NCBI GenBank assembly: GCA_964623675.1
Contig: CAZUSM010000001.1
Location: 1-51,806 of the forward strand
Source of the DNA: an uncultured Oscillospiraceae bacterium
GTDB taxonomy: Bacteria; Bacillota; Clostridia; Oscillospirales; Oscillospiraceae
Length of the DNA stretch: 51,806 bases
Reading direction: 5' to 3'
The position numbers and the translations under genes are program-made. This document shows, piece by piece, positions 24,506 through 29,185 of this stretch (positions are counted from its first letter, which is position 1; the number at the start of each line of letters is the position of its first letter). The notes beneath the pieces are model-generated. The model searched no databases. It had not been told where the DNA came from and saw nothing but the letters and a program-made list of their open reading frames with translations.

Positions 24506-24946
24506 TTATATTGCTTTTGCGACCTGATTTGCTTTTTCAACCGCTGTGAGGATGTTGCCGGAGGCTTCCGCGTCGCCCACGAGGTAAACGCTCTCGCCCA
24601 TGGTATCTTTCAGCTCGTCGTACACCGTCTGCATGGGCTTGAGCCCGATGGAGATTATCACGGTGTCGGCCTCAATGTCGTGCTCGCCGAGCTTCTTGGT
24701 CTTCACGCGCTCAAAGCCCATGACCTTTGAGCGCGTGAACACGTGGATGTTTGCCTTGCTTTCAAAGGCTTCAACCATGAATTGCTCATTGGGCGGGGCG
24801 GGCTGAATCTCGCCGCCGGTCATGATGCCTTGGCTCATTTCAATCACGCTGATGTCCTTTGCCTCGTCCTCGCTCAGCCACAGCGCCACTTCACAGCCTA
24901 CCCACTCACCGTCGACAATTATTTGACAGAAGCGGTAAAAACCAAC
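24506..24946 (-). pseudogene. 3'-terminal remnant of an FAD/NAD(P)-dependent oxidoreductase (enoate-/2,4-dienoyl-CoA-reductase-like C-terminal domain)
   Basis: Only about 147 codons remain, open to an in-frame TAA at 24947-24949. The stretch ..IIVDGEWVGCEVALWLSEDEAKDISVIEM.. aligns with the second Rossmann GxGxxG strand-helix, but two Gly are replaced (DGEWVG). The N-terminal ~3/4 of such enzymes is absent and there is no RBS at the GTG at 24889. Confidence 0.7.
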
Positions 24947-25138
24947 TTATTGAAACAGGGCAGTTCTCACGTTCAATATCTGATGGAAAGTGTGAAAGAC
25001 AGCACTACCTATGTCCGCAATATCAAGTAATATCTCTTGGAAACGCTTTATAATGCCCCTCCACTATAAACAACTCTTATTTGTCTCTGAACTCTCATGA
25101 TCTCTACAGAGATGGAAATCGCGGGCGTGAATAAACAA

Positions 25139-25167
25139 ACGGTGCATAACGAACTATTATGCACCGT
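25139..25167 (-). terminator. terminator of the R-M operon
   Basis: ACGGTGCATAA (25139-25149) pairs with TTATGCACCGT (25157-25167). On the minus strand it is followed by TTGTTTATT. It begins 8 nt after the nuclease-gene stop. Confidence 0.75.
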
Positions 25168-25174
25168 AAAAGAA

Positions 25175-26251
25175 TTATGCAGGCAAAACAATCTGCTGTC
25201 CGAACCTCAAGTCTTCTTGTGTAGGCAGAATTGCTAATTTTACCGTTTCTATTTTCGCAACATTTACCAACGCTTTTTCGTAGTCAACAGTTTGACAATG
25301 GATATACATAAACAATCCTTTGGCATTGGTGCAAATTTTGACGCATCTCTCGCCATTTTCGTTCATATACACGCGGTAAATGTAATATTTGCAATCAGTA
25401 GAAGTTGCAAAATTGATTTCCTGGCTACTAAAAATCATTTTCTGGGCGAATTTATAATTGGTGGTTTTTACATCAAGGTATATAATTTCACCCGCTTTGG
25501 TCTCAAAATAGAAATCATAGGGCATCCCGCTTTCTCTTTCCTCGTTGAGCCATTTATAGTTGACAATCTCACCTGTTTCTTTTAATTTGGCAAAATGACG
25601 CTCAATAAGGAACTCGCCTTCTTTGCCGATTTTAGCAAAAATCTCACGAGCTTTATTCATATCGTATTCGCGATACTTTTTAGGAGCAACAGCAGTAGTT
25701 TGTGCAATTACTTCCAATTCTTCTGCTATTCTCGCGCCTGTTTCGTTTACGATTTTCTCTAAATATTCTAACAGAGGGGTGAACTGAGGGGCTTGTTCCG
25801 TAATACGATTTTTTATCCCTTCCCTTAACTCAATACCTAACAATGCCGTCTCTCTGTATGTGTTAGAATTTTCATTAAAAAGGAAAAACACGGGCTGACC
25901 GCCTTTTAGCCCAAACCAAAAGAGATACCATCGAACATTATCAGCATATTCTTTGGCGCGATCTCTGATGAAGGTAACAACGCTAACTTCGTTCTTTTCG
26001 CCTTTTCTAATCTTCGGGCTTCTAAATGAGCCGTCGGGATTTTCGATTCTATCAAAATTTAAAGGCAGAAACTCAACTGCGTTGTTATAAATGAGCATAC
26101 TATCTTCTATCTCAAAACTATTTGGCAAATATGTAAATACATCGCCAAACAAGCCAATGTGCGTCTGATTAGACGTTTTACTCCGTCCTAAATCTGCATC
26201 GGTTAATTGCTTATATGCAATTATTTTTTCGTTGTGAAGTTCAAAAAACAC
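25175..26251 (-). CDS. putative restriction endonuclease: N-terminal B3/EcoRII-N-like DNA-binding region plus C-terminal DUF3883-type PD-(D/E)XK nuclease domain
   Basis: The C-terminus GKEGEFLIERHF..GMPYDFYFET..GEIIYLDVKTT..IFSSQEINFA..YYIYRVY matches the DUF3883 (E..D..(D/E)VK) pattern. GTG start at 26251 with GAGGTGAT RBS. It is the last gene of the operon, after two C5-MTases. Confidence 0.65.
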   Translation of the reverse strand: MFFELHNEKIIAYKQLTDADLGRSKTSNQTHIGLFGDVFTYLPNSFEIEDSMLIYNNAVEFLPLNFDRIENPDGSFRSPKIRKGEKNEVSVVTFIRDRAKEYADNVRWYLFWFGLKGGQPVFFLFNENSNTYRETALLGIELREGIKNRITEQAPQFTPLLEYLEKIVNETGARIAEELEVIAQTTAVAPKKYREYDMNKAREIFAKIGKEGEFLIERHFAKLKETGEIVNYKWLNEERESGMPYDFYFETKAGEIIYLDVKTTNYKFAQKMIFSSQEINFATSTDCKYYIYRVYMNENGERCVKICTNAKGLFMYIHCQTVDYEKALVNVAKIETVKLAILPTQEDLRFGQQIVLPA

Positions 26252-26257
26252 TTATCA

Positions 26258-27325
26258 TCACCTCAATTTCAAATGAACAAATAAATAGTAAAAGATGGCG
26301 TACACAGTATTGACGCTAACGGCATTTCCCGCTTGTTTATAAAGCTGCGCATTGCTTACCCCTGCTGAAGCAGCTTTTTCAAAACATTCTGCCGAAAATC
26401 CTTGTAACAGAAATGCCTCCTTCGGCGTTATTTTGCGAATACGTTGTTTGCAAAGTTCTTCCTTCGTATAAGAGGTTTCTAAGTATGCAACGGGATCTAC
26501 GGCTTGAATATACCCATCACTAAAATAGTTATCTTGGCAAGCGCGGTGCATTTTTACCATAGTTGCAGTTAAGGGTTTTGCGATCAGTGGGTTAATTTCA
26601 GACTTTGAATGATATGTTTTCGTCCCATTTGACAAAATGGTTGGTTTAATTGTCTCGGAAAGATAGAATTTCTCACTCACTGTTTTTTCCAAGATATCGT
26701 GTGTAGATTGCTGCATTAAAAGAGAGGTATCTTTCATCACGTTAGAAAAAACACTTTTTACGACTTTGCTAGTAAAGCTGAATCCCTCAATTTCTTCTGT
26801 TGTTGCCAAAATAAATACTCTATTCCGCTTTTGAGCTAATCCAAAATCCTCGGTATTAAAGATATCGAAATAGATATTTTTATACCCGCAATTCTTTAAC
26901 GACGCCAAAATATATGCAAAGGTTTGTCCGTTATTATGTGTCTTCAGATTACGCACATTTTCCAACAACACATATTTAGGCTTTGTTCTTTTTAGAATTT
27001 CAAGAATTTGAAAAAATACATTTCCACGCATATCCTCAAATCCTTTTTGCTTTCCCATCATGCTAAAGGCCTGGCAGGGAAACCCACCGGTCAGCAAATC
27101 AATTTTAGGAAGGGAGAGTATGTTTTCCTCGTCTTGATTAAAGGCAACTATGTCTCCCATTTCAAGCTCATGCTCTGTATTGTAGATAGCTTTGTAGGAT
27201 TTAACTGCACTTGAATCAATTTCGGAAAAAGCAATCGTTGCTTGAGGAATATCAAAATCCTCACTTAGCAAGGTTAAGGCTTGTCTGAATCCACCTATGC
27301 CTGCAAACAATTCTAAATGGTTCAT
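26258..27325 (-). CDS. DNA (cytosine-5)-methyltransferase (second of two)
   Basis: Motif I ELFAGIGGF, IV GGFPCQAFS, VI LLENVRNL, VIII QKRNRVFI, IX ITPKEAFLLQGF, X AGNAVSV. The start overlaps the upstream MTase stop (ATGA). Confidence 0.95.
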   Translation of the reverse strand: MNHLELFAGIGGFRQALTLLSEDFDIPQATIAFSEIDSSAVKSYKAIYNTEHELEMGDIVAFNQDEENILSLPKIDLLTGGFPCQAFSMMGKQKGFEDMRGNVFFQILEILKRTKPKYVLLENVRNLKTHNNGQTFAYILASLKNCGYKNIYFDIFNTEDFGLAQKRNRVFILATTEEIEGFSFTSKVVKSVFSNVMKDTSLLMQQSTHDILEKTVSEKFYLSETIKPTILSNGTKTYHSKSEINPLIAKPLTATMVKMHRACQDNYFSDGYIQAVDPVAYLETSYTKEELCKQRIRKITPKEAFLLQGFSAECFEKAASAGVSNAQLYKQAGNAVSVNTVYAIFYYLFVHLKLR

Positions 27326-28461
27326 AAGTATTTGATAATCTCCTCCCCGATAACTTGCGCTAATTTCACAGGAACAGCATTCCCGATCTGCTTATACCAA
27401 CTGTTTTGAGGTCCGAAAAAAACAAAATCATCAGGAAATGTCTGTATCCTTGCGGCTTCACGGGGGGACAAGCCTCGTGCCTGTGTTGGATGAATATACA
27501 TATTACAGTCGAATCTCATATGTGAAGTAATGGTCTTGCAAACATCATTGAAACGCAACTTGAAATATTTGTCTTTAAATATGCCGTTGCGGGATTTATA
27601 TGGCATAATATCTGCAATACATTCGTGCAACGAATTTGCACCTTGCGGCAGCCGAGTAAATATTTCTATATCTCTGTCATTGTTGTACCTGTTTTTGTGA
27701 TTATACAGATAATCAATTTTTCTTTCACCATTAATAAACGAATAAAACGGAGTAGCCGCATACGAATACTCTATACGGGTATATCCTGTCCCGGCGCATT
27801 CGCTTTTGTTATTATTCTTTATCCGGTTCGGCTCTAATTGAGGCAGATCGGCTATAGCGTCATATAAAGTAAATCTTGGCGTTGTAGTTTCTCTATTGTG
27901 GATTTCTTCGATTATTTGTTTAGATGAAACACCAATTCGATTGCCAATTAAAAATACCCTCTCACGATTTTGAGGGACACCAAAATTCTTAGCATTGAAA
28001 ACATCAAAAAAAACATCGTATTCTTGTCCGAGATATTCTTTTATATCAGCTAATATTTCATCAGTTTTATTCAACATCCCCTTTACATTTTCCATAACAA
28101 AAAACTTGGGACGAGAATTTTTCAAAAAAACCAAATATTCTTTGTACAGAACGTTTCTCGGGTCGTTTATCAAGCGCTGTCTATTGGCTGTAGAAAAGCC
28201 TTGACAAGGGGGACCACCACACACTAAAGCTACATTAGCAAATTGTTTAGCAAATTCAGAGTATCTGCGATTTAATTCTGCAATATCGCCTACAAACATT
28301 TTATCCGCGCCTAGCGCCCTGTTTGCTAAATATGTTTGCGAGCAGATGGGATCAATGTCGCTTGCGAATGCAACTTGAAATCCCGCTTGTTCCATTCCCA
28401 AACTCAATCCACCACATCCTGCAAATAAATCAACAAAGTTATTCTTCATCTGTATCACCAT
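27322..28461 (-). CDS. DNA (cytosine-5)-methyltransferase (first of two)
   Basis: Motif I DLFAGCGGLS, IV GGPPCQGFS, VI VMENVKGM, VIII QNRERVFLIG, IX LSPREAARIQTFPDDF, X IGNAVPV. Alternative start at ATG 28449. Confidence 0.95.
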   Translation of the reverse strand: MVIQMKNNFVDLFAGCGGLSLGMEQAGFQVAFASDIDPICSQTYLANRALGADKMFVGDIAELNRRYSEFAKQFANVALVCGGPPCQGFSTANRQRLINDPRNVLYKEYLVFLKNSRPKFFVMENVKGMLNKTDEILADIKEYLGQEYDVFFDVFNAKNFGVPQNRERVFLIGNRIGVSSKQIIEEIHNRETTTPRFTLYDAIADLPQLEPNRIKNNNKSECAGTGYTRIEYSYAATPFYSFINGERKIDYLYNHKNRYNNDRDIEIFTRLPQGANSLHECIADIMPYKSRNGIFKDKYFKLRFNDVCKTITSHMRFDCNMYIHPTQARGLSPREAARIQTFPDDFVFFGPQNSWYKQIGNAVPVKLAQVIGEEIIKYL

Positions 28462-28642
28462 TTGCTATGTTCCTTGCTTTACAGAAGTTTTCAAATGTTT
28501 TCTTTGCAAGTCTGCTTGGATTATAACTGCCGTTTTCCCAACGATTAACGGTGGCATAACTAACTCCCAATTCGTGTGCGAGATCTTCTTGTGTCATTTT
28601 TAACTGCAATCTAACTAGTTTAATATTATTTGCAAAATCCAT
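28439..28642 (-). CDS. XRE-family HTH protein, candidate controller (C-protein-like) of the R-M operon
   Basis: 67 aa, ..LKMTQEDLAHELGVSYATVNRWENGSYNPS.. (HTH_3). First gene of the operon, overlapping the first MTase gene by 11-23 nt. RBS AGAGG lies 6 nt upstream. Confidence 0.85.
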   Translation of the reverse strand: MDFANNIKLVRLQLKMTQEDLAHELGVSYATVNRWENGSYNPSRLAKKTFENFCKARNIANGDTDEE

Positions 28643-28673
28643 AAATAACCTCTATGTAATGAGTATAAAAACT

Positions 28674-28702
28674 ATTATAGCACTTTTTATAGCATTTGTA
28701 AA
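28674..28702 (-). promoter_or_regulatory. near-consensus extended -10 promoter of the R-M operon
   Basis: Minus strand reads TTTACA (28702-28697), 17 nt, then TGCTATAAT (TGn plus TATAAT, 28682-28674), about 30 nt upstream of the HTH start. Confidence 0.7.
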
Positions 28703-29185
28703 TAGCAGAGAGCGCCTTATAGGAATTATCGCAGTTGTATGCTTTCAATCCCAAACATCAATATCCATTTTGCGCGAGGGTTCAATAATAGATTGTTTGC
28801 AAGGAGGGACACACTTGCAGTGTTTGCCATCAGCTTTTTCACGCATAGTAACTAAGAATTAAACGGGGCAGTTAAATGCATTGAGGAATGGCTGCTTTGC
28901 CTGCTTGTGAACAAAAAACAGTAAGCATTTGTTAATGGCGGTGCGTATGCACCGTTCATCTTGATCATTGACAAGTGCCGTCTTTTTTTTACTCTAATAC
29001 TTTGATGAAAATTTTTTTGAAAAGTGTCCGAGCCACCCATTCTTAAAATCAGTAAATTGAAATGGTTTAAAAATCAGCCTAAGCGTCTTTCTATTTCCGC
29101 TTTTCGCAATCGTCATTTTGCCACTATTAAAAATCCGTGAAATGTGGTATAACTAATCGACAAAACCAACCAAGGAGAAAACCCA

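What the first reader, a model, noticed from the sequence alone, without database searches (positions are those of the whole stretch)
25175..26251. Nuclease candidate combines a B3/EcoRII-N-like N-terminus with a DUF3883-type PD-(D/E)XK domain
- The C-terminal ~150 aa fit the DUF3883 pattern: GKEGEFLIERHF (Glu), GMPYDFYF (Asp), IYLDVKTT ((D/E)-x-K), then IFSSQEINFA and YYIYRVY. This domain is a PD-(D/E)XK nuclease fold found in many poorly characterised defence proteins.
- The N-terminal ~200 aa begin ..IIAYKQLTDADLGRSKTSNQTHIGLFGDVF... This is reminiscent of the K-x-L-T/S-x-x-D..(polar)..h-x-h-P signature of B3/EcoRII-N pseudobarrel DNA-binding domains. That is resemblance only.
- A DNA reader fused to a separate cleavage module is the Type IIS/IIE logic and fits the paired MTases.
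- A methyl-directed (Type IV-like) reading is the alternative and would be paradoxical in this operon.
Basis: inference. Interest (0 to 1): 0.65.

Follow-up and report, generated by a model that had tools for sequence, protein, structure and literature searches.

The report
Restriction enzyme: B3-like reader plus DUF3883 nuclease
The 358-residue protein is very probably the DNA-cutting half of a small, horizontally mobile restriction-modification cassette: a B3-like DNA-reading domain fused to a DUF3883 nuclease. The same reading domain, next to the same pair of protective methylases, is found elsewhere joined to two other kinds of cutting machinery.

Summary

- **The gene.** ORF 25175..26251 (minus strand, GTG start) encodes 358 aa.
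- **C-terminal half.** Residues 218-301 match Pfam NOV_C/DUF3883 (E 3.4e-12, above the cut-off). D246, D260 and K262 are invariant in 41 relatives.
- **N-terminal domain.** Residues 1-150 match no Pfam family. A confident AlphaFold model (pLDDT 92) finds only B3-like pseudobarrels as its seven best PDB matches: BfiI-C, LlaJI.R1-N, LEC2 and UbaLAI.
- **Operon.** The gene ends a low-GC operon: promoter, HTH regulator, C5-methylase M1, C5-methylase M2, R, terminator.
- **Synteny.** In 41 independent loci from at least eight phyla, including one archaeon, C5-methylase genes directly precede R. Forty of them keep the M1-M2-R order, and R and M divergence co-vary (Spearman 0.89 and 0.84).
- **New result.** A profile of the N-domain alone also finds it on McrB-like AAA+ proteins (next to a LlaJI-family R2) and on HNH nucleases. 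Each sits downstream of orthologous M1/M2 pairs.

So the N-domain is most likely the sequence reader and DUF3883 a swappable cutter (BfiI/FokI logic). The recognition site, cut position and activity are untested. I rate it a new variant of a known kind, of moderate interest.

The parts
28674..28702 (-). Promoter-like site of the cassette (TTTACA-17 nt-TATAAT, with TG extension). It overlaps a tandem repeat, TTATAGCA(C/T)TT x2, at 28675-28697, which is a possible operator.
   Evidence: 11 of 12 consensus matches. (repeat). Homology to other cassettes extends through this region. Consensus match only; function is inferred.
28439..28642 (-). Small HTH_3 (Xre/Cro-type) protein of 67 aa, a putative controller or repressor of the operon. 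It overlaps the M1 start by 23 nt.
   Evidence: Pfam HTH_3 at E 1.1e-12. PADLOC control-protein models match only weakly. Orthologues lie upstream of M1 in L004-L008, L023 and L024, and other small HTH genes lie in L001 and L002.
27322..28461 (-). M1, a C5-cytosine DNA methyltransferase of 379 aa.
   Evidence: PF00145 at E 9e-75, TIGR00675 at E 9.6e-62. Orthologue at 55-92% identity in every related locus.
26258..27325 (-). M2, a C5-cytosine DNA methyltransferase of 355 aa, only about 31% identical to M1.
   Evidence: PF00145 at E 2.3e-71, TIGR00675 at E 3.7e-74. Orthologue at 50-94% identity in 40 of 41 loci. M1 against M2 is 31%.
25175..26251 (-). R, the candidate restriction endonuclease (358 aa plus stop). 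This is the finding itself.
25802..26251 (-). R residues 1-150: B3-like DNA-binding pseudobarrel, the putative target reader. Signature: K14-x-L-T-D-x-D-L-G ... T30-H-I-G-L34 ... R77-S-P-K-I-R82 ... W108-Y-L-F-W-F113.
   Evidence: Domain model pLDDT 92.3. The seven best Foldseek PDB matches are all B3-like domains. The signature is invariant across the DUF3883, AAA_5 and HNH architectures.
25322..25669 (-). R residues 195-310: DUF3883/NOV_C PD-(D/E)XK nuclease core. Catalytic candidates and their codons: E213 (25613-25615), D246 (25514-25516), D260 (25472-25474), K262 (25466-25468).
   Evidence: Pfam. D246, D260, V261 and K262 are invariant and E213 is at least 90% conserved in 41 sequences. 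Helix-strand order in the model. Foldseek matches to PvuII, AvaII, AdnA nuclease, Cas4-family ACE1, and viral NOV_C, RecB, Cas4 and VRR-NUC. Codons.
25139..25167 (-). Terminator-like hairpin (12-bp stem followed by a T-rich tail), 8 nt after the R stop codon.
24900..29150 (.). Low-GC island (about 37-40% GC against 57-62% in the flanks) that carries the cassette. The segment shared with the closest foreign cassette (L004) is 25007-28860.

Best explanation
The protein is the restriction endonuclease of a self-contained, horizontally mobile Type II restriction-modification cassette. The unit reads promoter, HTH regulator, M1, M2, R, terminator.

Proposed mechanism:
- The N-terminal B3-like pseudobarrel (aa 1-150) reads a short asymmetric, cytosine-containing DNA sequence when it is unmethylated.
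- Two long helices connect it to a minimal DUF3883/NOV_C PD-(D/E)XK domain (E213, D246, D260-V-K262). This domain has little or no sequence specificity of its own and makes the cut.
- Cutting is most likely at or near the site in a Mg2+-dependent reaction. Because each chain has one active site, a double-strand break would need two catalytic domains, as with FokI or BfiI.
- M1 and M2 each methylate C5 of a cytosine on one strand of the asymmetric site, as in HgaI and LlaJI, and so protect the host.
- The small HTH protein probably sets the timing or level of operon expression.

Shown here: domain identities, conserved catalytic residues, operon anatomy, strict co-inheritance with M1/M2, and reuse of the reader domain with other effectors.

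Inferred, not shown: nuclease activity, which domain carries the specificity, asymmetry of the site, cut position, oligomeric state, and the role of the HTH.
For: 1. DUF3883/NOV_C matches above the Pfam cut-off. D246, D260 and K262 are invariant and E213 is at least 90% conserved. The helix and strands follow the canonical PD-(D/E)XK order in a pLDDT 90.8 model.
2. NOV_C/DUF3883 is the catalytic domain of tested enzymes: YenY4I (PMC6765204) and HmaA (PMC11232893). It was assigned to PD-(D/E)XK in PMC3424549.
3. For the N-domain model, the seven best PDB matches out of 350,542 chains are all B3-like DNA-binding domains. They are BfiI (E 8.9e-4), LlaJI.R1-N (1.6e-3, TM 0.53/0.60), LEC2 (TM 0.47/0.61) and UbaLAI-B3.
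4. In 41 independent loci from Clostridia, Bacteroidota, Alphaproteobacteria, Campylobacterota, Gastranaerophilales, Saccharibacteria, Acholeplasmatales and a methanogen, C5-MTase genes directly precede R. Forty keep the M1-M2-R order.
5. R identity co-varies with M1 and M2 identity (Spearman 0.89 and 0.84, n=40).
6. The MTase target-recognition regions are as conserved as the catalytic cores (66% against 65% for M1, 68% against 63% for M2). This argues for one shared specificity.
7. The N-domain profile finds the same domain at the N terminus of McrB-like AAA_5 proteins and of HNH nucleases. These sit directly behind M1/M2 orthologues at 50-59% identity. One type is followed by a PF09563 RE_LlaJI gene.
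8. In LlaJI, the R1 subunit is the sole specificity determinant and restricts unmethylated DNA (PMC1459862).
9. Promoter-like and terminator-like sites bracket the four genes.
Against: - No biochemical data exist for any member of this family.
- The Foldseek E-values for the B3-like fold are modest (about 1e-3) and the TM-scores are 0.4-0.6. No Pfam B3, EcoRII-N or BfiI model matches the sequence.
- The N-domains of prototype LlaJI R1 and of the Treponema R1 are not detectably similar by hhalign. The Treponema MTases are 59% and 57% identical to M1 and M2, so reader and MTase pair are not always visibly linked.
- DUF3883 is also the cutter of methyl-dependent enzymes.
- E213 is replaced by Lys in at least one relative (P0113).
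- The recognition sequence could not be inferred. The prototype LlaJI MTases are only 25-30% identical, and solved MTases match only the catalytic motifs.
Confidence: 0.75

Rival explanations
1. Type IIE, EcoRII- or UbaLAI-like enzyme. The PD-(D/E)XK domain itself recognises and cuts inside the target. The B3-like domain binds a second copy of the site as an allosteric effector or autoinhibitor.
For: EcoRII and UbaLAI are the two solved precedents with an N-terminal B3-like domain and a C-terminal PD-(D/E)XK domain (PMC2770665, PMC5766183).
Against: The DUF3883 core here is minimal, about 115-145 aa, and belongs to a family used as a generic cutter in many fusions. The same reader domain is paired with HNH or with a McrB-type motor behind orthologous MTases, which is hard to reconcile with specificity residing in the nuclease domain. 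EcoRII and UbaLAI sites are (pseudo)palindromic and need one MTase, not two.
Confidence: 0.1
2. Methyl-directed (Type IV-like) nuclease that reads m5C, linked to the MTases for some other reason.
For: DUF3883 is the catalytic domain of the modification-dependent enzymes YenY4I and McaZI, some of which sit beside C5 MTases. One locus, L013, combines R with McrB/McrC genes.
Against: No known modification-reading domain (SRA, PUA, DUF3427, EVE, YTH) is present. The solved bacterial restriction-enzyme B3-like domains matched here (BfiI-C, UbaLAI) were crystallised with cognate DNA, and LlaJI.R1 is reported to bind DNA site-specifically. R sits in one operon with both MTases in every locus examined and co-diverges with them, which would be self-destructive for an m5C-dependent enzyme. 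LlaJI, with the same layout, restricts unmethylated DNA.
Confidence: 0.05
3. The protein cannot cut on its own. It could be a strand-specific nicking enzyme. Or it could need a partner encoded elsewhere, such as an NTPase, as for NgoAVII or CglI, where a B3-containing R protein needs an ATPase.
For: There is one active site per chain. In CglI and NgoAVII the B3-containing R protein depends on a separately encoded helicase-like ATPase for DNA cleavage (PMC4267653, PMC5737866).
Against: The four-gene cassette is the only block shared between 41 otherwise unrelated contexts. No conserved fifth gene or NTPase travels with it.
Confidence: 0.1

Closest known systems
BfiI (Type IIS; PLD nuclease plus C-terminal B3-like domain; PDB 2c1l, 3zi5)
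   Same: It is the best structural match of the N-domain. The logic is the same: a B3-like domain supplies specificity for an asymmetric site and a separate non-specific nuclease domain cuts.
   Different: The BfiI cutter is a metal-independent PLD-family domain, whereas here it is a PD-(D/E)XK DUF3883 domain. The domain order is reversed. There is no detectable sequence similarity.
LlaJI-type systems (M1, M2 m5C MTases; R1 = B3 domain plus McrB-like GTPase; R2 nuclease)
   Same: The layout is the same: two C5 MTases followed by the restriction gene(s). The H. pylori LlaJI.R1 N-domain is the second-best structural match. Sequence-level homologues of this N-domain are the N-termini of McrB-like proteins followed by PF09563 RE_LlaJI genes. 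The closest plasmid-borne M1/M2 pair (59% and 57% identical) belongs to a LlaJI-type system in Treponema saccharophilum.
   Different: No AAA+/GTPase and no R2 gene are present here; a single chain carries its own nuclease. The prototype LlaJI (GACGC) MTases are only 25-30% identical, and its R1 N-domain is not detectably similar. The target is therefore probably a different sequence.
EcoRII and UbaLAI (Type IIE; N-terminal B3-like plus C-terminal PD-(D/E)XK)
   Same: They share the domain order and the same two fold classes. UbaLAI-B3 is among the best matches.
   Different: Their catalytic domains are themselves site-specific for CCWGG and belong to other PD-(D/E)XK families. They use one MTase and their B3 domain is an effector. 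Here the cutter is a generic DUF3883 module and there are two MTases.
YenY4I/McaZI-group modification-dependent enzymes and HmaA (DUF3883/NOV_C as nuclease module)
   Same: They use the same Pfam family for the catalytic domain.
   Different: Their reader or motor domains are PUA, DUF3427 or Snf2, and they target modified DNA or act as a helicase-nuclease. They have no cognate protective MTase pair.
HgaI (Type IIS with two m5C MTases, one per strand) - from general knowledge, not tested here
   Same: It uses two separate C5 MTases for one asymmetric site together with a single-chain endonuclease.

Membership tests
Pfam PF13020 NOV_C / DUF3883 (PD-(D/E)XK clan) | Profile match above the curated gathering score | tested here: met
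   46.7 bits against a cut-off of 22.1, E 3.4e-12, aa 218-301. All listed homologues carry PF13020.
Pfam PF13020 NOV_C / DUF3883 (PD-(D/E)XK clan) | Conserved acidic and Lys catalytic residues (E ... D ... (D/E)-x-K) on a helix-strand-strand-strand core | tested here: met
   D246, D260, V261 and K262 are invariant and E213 is at least 90% conserved in 41 sequences. The model places the helix at 195-225 and strands at 231-234, 247-250 and 256-263. Structural matches to PvuII, AvaII, AdnA and Cas4-like nucleases.
Pfam PF13020 NOV_C / DUF3883 (PD-(D/E)XK clan) | Metal-dependent nuclease activity | not testable with these tools
   Requires purified protein.
B3-like DNA-binding pseudobarrel (EcoRII-N, BfiI-C, LlaJI.R1-N, plant B3) | Pseudobarrel fold superimposable on solved B3-like domains | tested here: met
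   Model pLDDT 92.3. The seven best Foldseek matches are all B3-like, with probability 0.80-1.00 and TM 0.41-0.61. The scores are moderate, not overwhelming.
B3-like DNA-binding pseudobarrel (EcoRII-N, BfiI-C, LlaJI.R1-N, plant B3) | Sequence-profile membership in a curated B3, EcoRII-N or BfiI-type family | tested here: not met
   No Pfam family matched any of 25 N-domains at E <= 10. PDB sequence searches were empty. The domain is a separate, unnamed sequence family.
B3-like DNA-binding pseudobarrel (EcoRII-N, BfiI-C, LlaJI.R1-N, plant B3) | Sequence-specific DNA binding through the N-arm and C-arm loops | not testable with these tools
   The loops between strands (LTDADLGR..THIGL and RSPKIR) are the most conserved parts. 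That is suggestive only.
Type IIS restriction-modification system | Separate recognition and cleavage domains in one chain | tested here: met
   Two-domain model joined by long helices. The cleavage domain is exchangeable for HNH or a McrB-type module.
Type IIS restriction-modification system | Asymmetric target protected by two strand-specific MTases | tested here: inconclusive
   Two divergent C5 MTases (31% identical) are conserved together in 40 of 41 loci. Strand specificity and the site itself are unknown.
Type IIS restriction-modification system | Cleavage at a fixed distance outside the site | not testable with these tools
   Needs cut-site mapping.
LlaJI-type (McrBC-like) restriction system | R1 with a McrB-like GTPase domain and a separate R2 (PF09563) nuclease | tested here: not met
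   The window cassette has no AAA+ gene and no PF09563 gene. Relatives with those genes exist elsewhere.
Type IV / modification-dependent restriction enzyme | Modification-reading domain and absence of a cognate MTase acting on the same site | tested here: not met
   The N-domain is B3-like, not SRA, PUA, DUF3427, EVE or YTH. Two MTases share the operon in every locus.
C-protein-controlled R-M system | Small HTH protein with a palindromic C-box operator upstream of its own gene | tested here: inconclusive
   HTH_3 at E 1.1e-12. PADLOC control-protein models match only at 3e-3. Upstream there is a strong promoter-like site with a tandem repeat rather than a clear palindrome.

The most novel reading that the evidence does not exclude
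The conserved 'THIGL' B3-like reader and its orthologous M1/M2 methylase pair form one portable specificity cassette. Evolution has plugged three unrelated restriction engines onto it: a single-chain DUF3883 PD-(D/E)XK cutter (this gene), an HNH cutter, and a McrB-like NTP-driven motor with a LlaJI-type R2 nuclease. All would act on the same or nearly the same asymmetric site. That would be a natural series showing how NTP-independent Type IIS-like enzymes and McrBC-like motor nucleases interconvert. It would also give a ready-made scaffold for swapping cleavage chemistry behind a fixed DNA reader.
Probability: 0.5. Interest if true: 0.65.

Novelty: new variant of a known kind. Interest (0 to 1): 0.52.

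Why it matters
- **Function for a poorly annotated family.** It gives a concrete, testable function to a widespread family: 448 clusters in the large protein database at E <= 1e-3. Where a source name is shown for a listed homologue, it is only 'DUF3883 domain-containing protein'.
- **A new role for DUF3883.** It would be the first case I could find of DUF3883 acting as the cutter of a classical, methylation-blocked restriction enzyme rather than of a modification-dependent one.
- **A tidy example of modular evolution.** The shared reader domain links single-chain enzymes to LlaJI/McrBC-like motor nucleases and to HNH enzymes behind the same methylase pair.
- **Possible tool value.** If the site is new, the enzyme could be a useful Type IIS-like reagent, and the reader domain a compact DNA-targeting module.

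Tried and rejected
- **PDB sequence searches.** Searches with the protein and with the family profile found nothing meaningful. The ring-hydroxylating dioxygenase beta-subunit hit (E 0.017) was judged to be chance.
- **Direct comparison with LlaJI-type R1 proteins.** BLASTP and hhalign of R or its family against the Treponema, Pedobacter and prototype LlaJI R1 proteins showed no significant similarity.
- **Pfam on N-domains.** A scan of 25 N-domains at E <= 10 found no B3 or EcoRII-N family.
- **Inferring the target site.** Prototype LlaJI (GACGC) MTases are only 25-30% identical. Solved MTases (HaeIII, HhaI, DNMT1) match only the catalytic motifs, not the recognition region. The site remains unknown.
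- **Mobile-element signature.** A search for flanking direct or inverted repeats at the island borders found nothing convincing.
- **Phage carriage.** No relative was found in IMG/VR viral contigs. Only two distant DUF3883-only hits appeared in plasmids.
- **Unavailable sources.** Accession DQ534432 (pNP40) was not in the collection; the record was reached as NC_010901.1 instead. The LlaJI.R1 structure paper PMC6066307 is not held, so it is cited only through PMC7680126.
- **Not run.** The metagenome scan was skipped because the genome scan already gave 41 loci.
Full report
**1. The observation**

The window has an intact ORF at 25175..26251 on the minus strand: 358 aa, GTG start, stop at 25175-25177.

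Homologues begin with the same MFFELH, so the start is real.

The ORF lies in a sharply bounded low-GC island, roughly 24,900-29,150. Its GC content is 37-40%, against 57-62% on both sides.

**2. The C-terminal half**

- Pfam NOV_C (PF13020, formerly DUF3883) matches residues 218-301 at E 3.4e-12, with 46.7 bits against a cut-off of 22.1.
- PADLOC models of the Tiamat protein TmtA match the same region at E 1.1e-16.
- In an alignment of 41 full-length relatives at 48-91% identity, D246, D260, V261 and K262 are invariant. E213 is conserved in at least 90%.
- The full-length AlphaFold model is confident (mean pLDDT 90.8, no segment below 50). It places E213 on the long helix 195-225, D246 at the start of strand 247-250, and D260/K262 on strand 256-263. 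This is the canonical PD-(D/E)XK order.
- Foldseek matches for this half are PvuII, AvaII, the AdnA nuclease domain and Cas4-family ACE1 among solved structures. Among viral models they are NOV_C, RecB, Cas4, VRR-NUC and RecU.
- Published work assigns DUF3883 to the PD-(D/E)XK superfamily (PMC3424549). It also treats DUF3883 as the catalytic domain of tested enzymes: the modification-dependent YenY4I group (PMC6765204) and the Snf2-nuclease HmaA (PMC11232893).

**3. The N-terminal domain**

- Sequence methods see nothing. There is no Pfam, NCBIfam or PDB sequence match. None of 25 N-domains scanned singly at E <= 10 matched a Pfam family.
- The domain was modelled alone (aa 1-155; pLDDT 92.3, pTM 0.87) and searched against 350,542 PDB chains.
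- The seven best matches are all B3-like DNA-binding pseudobarrels:
  - BfiI (E 8.9e-4) and its C-terminal recognition domain bound to DNA
  - the H. pylori LlaJI.R1 N-domain (E 1.6e-3, TM 0.53/0.60)
  - the Arabidopsis LEC2 B3 domain (TM 0.47/0.61)
  - the UbaLAI B3 domain
- The scores are moderate, but the list is uniform. The same families also led the full-length search.
The domain is about 150 aa. Residues ~157-225 form two long helices that lead into the nuclease core.

**4. Context in the window**

Upstream on the same strand, tightly packed, lie three genes:
- a 67-aa HTH_3 protein (28439..28642)
- C5-MTase M1 (27322..28461, 379 aa)
- C5-MTase M2 (26258..27325, 355 aa; 31% identical to M1)

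A near-consensus promoter-like site (TTTACA-17-TATAAT with TG extension, 28702..28674) precedes the HTH gene. A 12-bp-stem terminator-like hairpin (25167..25139) follows R.

The four genes thus look like one 3.6-kb transcription unit. These two signals are consensus matches, not proof.

**5. Related loci**

- The large protein database holds 448 clusters at E <= 1e-3. All 120 that were listed carry PF13020; most are 355-372 aa and a few are truncated.
- A scan of one genome per species returned 41 loci. They come from Clostridia, Bacteroidota (Muribaculaceae, Rikenellaceae, Pedobacter, Saprospiraceae), Alphaproteobacteria, Campylobacterota, Gastranaerophilales, Saccharibacteria, Acholeplasmatales and the archaeon Methanimicrococcus.
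- Counting three loci from exact look-ups (one is a duplicate), 41 independent loci include upstream DNA.
- In all 41, C5-MTase genes directly precede R. Forty have the M1-M2-R order with 0-87-nt gaps; in L005 the M1 gene appears split. One locus, L013, is composite.
- Outside the cassette the loci share nothing with the window, so the cassette moves as a unit.
- R identity (37-93%) tracks M1 identity (55-92%) and M2 identity (29-94%; 50-94% without the composite locus L013). Spearman coefficients are 0.89 and 0.84. R is the faster-evolving partner in 36-37 of 40 loci.
- The MTase segments between the catalytic motifs, which are the target-recognition regions, are as conserved as the cores: 66% against 65% for M1 and 68% against 63% for M2. 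MTases with different specificities normally differ most there, so the family probably shares one target.
- No relative was found in viral contigs.

**6. The link to LlaJI-type systems and to HNH enzymes**

- The closest plasmid-borne M1/M2 pair (59% and 57% identical, adjacent, same order) is on Treponema saccharophilum pTS1. There it is followed by a McrB-family AAA+ protein and a 'LlaJI family restriction endonuclease'.
- A Pedobacter plasmid shows the same layout with more distant MTases.
- I then searched 1.84 billion representative proteins with a profile of the N-domain alone. It returned 198 hits at E <= 1e-3.
- Most hits are DUF3883 proteins of 340-400 aa. Seventeen of the best 150 are longer.
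- Of those 17, 16 carry the domain at their N terminus; in P0221 (5875 aa) the matches are internal. For example, P0246 matches at E 8e-13 and P0215 at 1e-20.
- Among these longer proteins, at least nine are McrB-like AAA_5 proteins and two are HNH nucleases.
- Their genes sit directly behind two C5 MTases:
  - L048: M-M-[reader+AAA_5]
  - L051 and L052: M-M-[reader+AAA_5], followed in L051 by a PF09563 RE_LlaJI gene
  - L049 and L050: M-M-[reader+HNH]
  - L053: M-M-161-aa ORF-[reader+AAA_5]-802-aa ORF
- Those MTases are orthologues of the window's M1 and M2: 59% and 50% in L048, 50% and 50% in L049.
- An alignment across the three architectures keeps K14, T30-H-I-G-L34, I69, F122 and S129 invariant. 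The RSPKIR loop and WYL(I/F)(W/F) are nearly so.
- For LlaJI itself, published genetics and biochemistry assign specificity to R1 alone. They also show that the system restricts unmethylated DNA at an asymmetric site protected by two m5C MTases (PMC1459862). The H. pylori R1 N-domain is described as a site-specific B3 domain (PMC7680126).

**7. Mechanism**

The simplest account is that the B3-like domain is the sequence reader matched to M1/M2, and DUF3883 is a generic, exchangeable cutter. This is the logic of BfiI and FokI, with a PD-(D/E)XK module.

Two divergent C5 MTases kept together imply an asymmetric site methylated on one strand each.

Each chain has one active site, so a double-strand break should need two catalytic domains, by transient dimerisation or by using two sites. 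This last step is inference only.

Not shown by anything here: nuclease activity, the site, the cut position, and the role of the HTH.

The site is probably not GACGC. The prototype LlaJI MTases are only 25-30% identical, and the prototype R1 N-domain is not detectably related.

**8. Rivals**

- **EcoRII- or UbaLAI-like Type IIE enzyme.** This is the nearest architectural precedent, but it fits poorly with a swappable cutter and with two MTases.
- **Methyl-directed enzyme.** This is suggested only by the use of DUF3883 in Type IV enzymes and by the composite locus L013. It conflicts with the operon, with the co-divergence of R and the MTases, and with the absence of a modification reader.
- **Dependence on an unlinked partner, or nicking only.** This cannot be excluded, but no fifth gene travels with the cassette.

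**9. Weak points**

- The fold match is moderate.
- The Treponema system has orthologous MTases but an R1 N-domain with no detectable similarity. Either that domain has diverged beyond recognition or readers can also be replaced.
- The NJ trees that place the Treponema MTases among family members are unrooted and crude.

**10. Novelty**

B3-like readers fused to PLD, PD-(D/E)XK or AAA+ modules are known, and DUF3883 is a known nuclease module.

What I did not find in any family library or paper searched here:
- this particular sequence family of reader
- its fusion to DUF3883 in a classical R-M operon
- its reuse with HNH and McrB-type engines behind one orthologous MTase pair

REBASE could not be consulted, so a putative listing there cannot be ruled out.

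I rate it a new variant of a known kind, of moderate interest.

Noticed in passing
window 24506-24889 (minus strand), at the island edge near 24,900: A 127-aa ORF looks like only the C-terminal part of a Pyr_redox_2 flavoprotein (Pfam E 1.6e-4, below the cut-off). Its 5' part is missing where the low-GC island begins, so arrival of the cassette may have truncated a host gene.
   Followed up: no
L013 1-7071 (Faecalimonas sp. MAG, JAZUCE010000136.1): Composite locus: an M1 orthologue, a 909-aa McrB-like AAA_5 protein with HTH_73, a 461-aa McrC protein, an unrelated 315-aa C5 MTase, then the B3/DUF3883 R. The recognition region of that MTase is only 15% identical to M2. Two restriction engines appear to sit in one operon, or this is an exchange intermediate.
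   Followed up: partly
L045 4875-10083 (Treponema saccharophilum pTS1, NZ_AP025289.1): M1/M2 orthologues (59% and 57% identical; recognition regions 70% and 62%) are followed by a McrB-like protein whose N-domain shows no detectable similarity to the window's reader, and then by a LlaJI-family R2. If both systems share a site, two unrelated-looking readers would recognise it.
   Followed up: partly
L005 3797-4929: The M1 orthologue aligns as two pieces (aa 5-228 and aa 231-379), which suggests a frameshift or an assembly error in this MAG.
   Followed up: no
P0195 (970 aa): The reader domain at the N terminus is followed by ankyrin repeats and sigma-70 regions 2, 3 and 4. This is either an odd fusion or a gene-call chimera.
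   Followed up: no
P0221 (5875 aa) and P0212 (822 aa): P0221 matches profile positions 25-79 in eleven separate stretches, which is unexplained.
   Followed up: no
window 28675-28697: A tandem direct repeat, TTATAGCACTT / TTATAGCATTT (12-nt spacing), overlaps the -10 region of the cassette promoter. It may be the operator of the HTH protein. It is not the palindromic C-box typical of controller proteins.
   Followed up: partly
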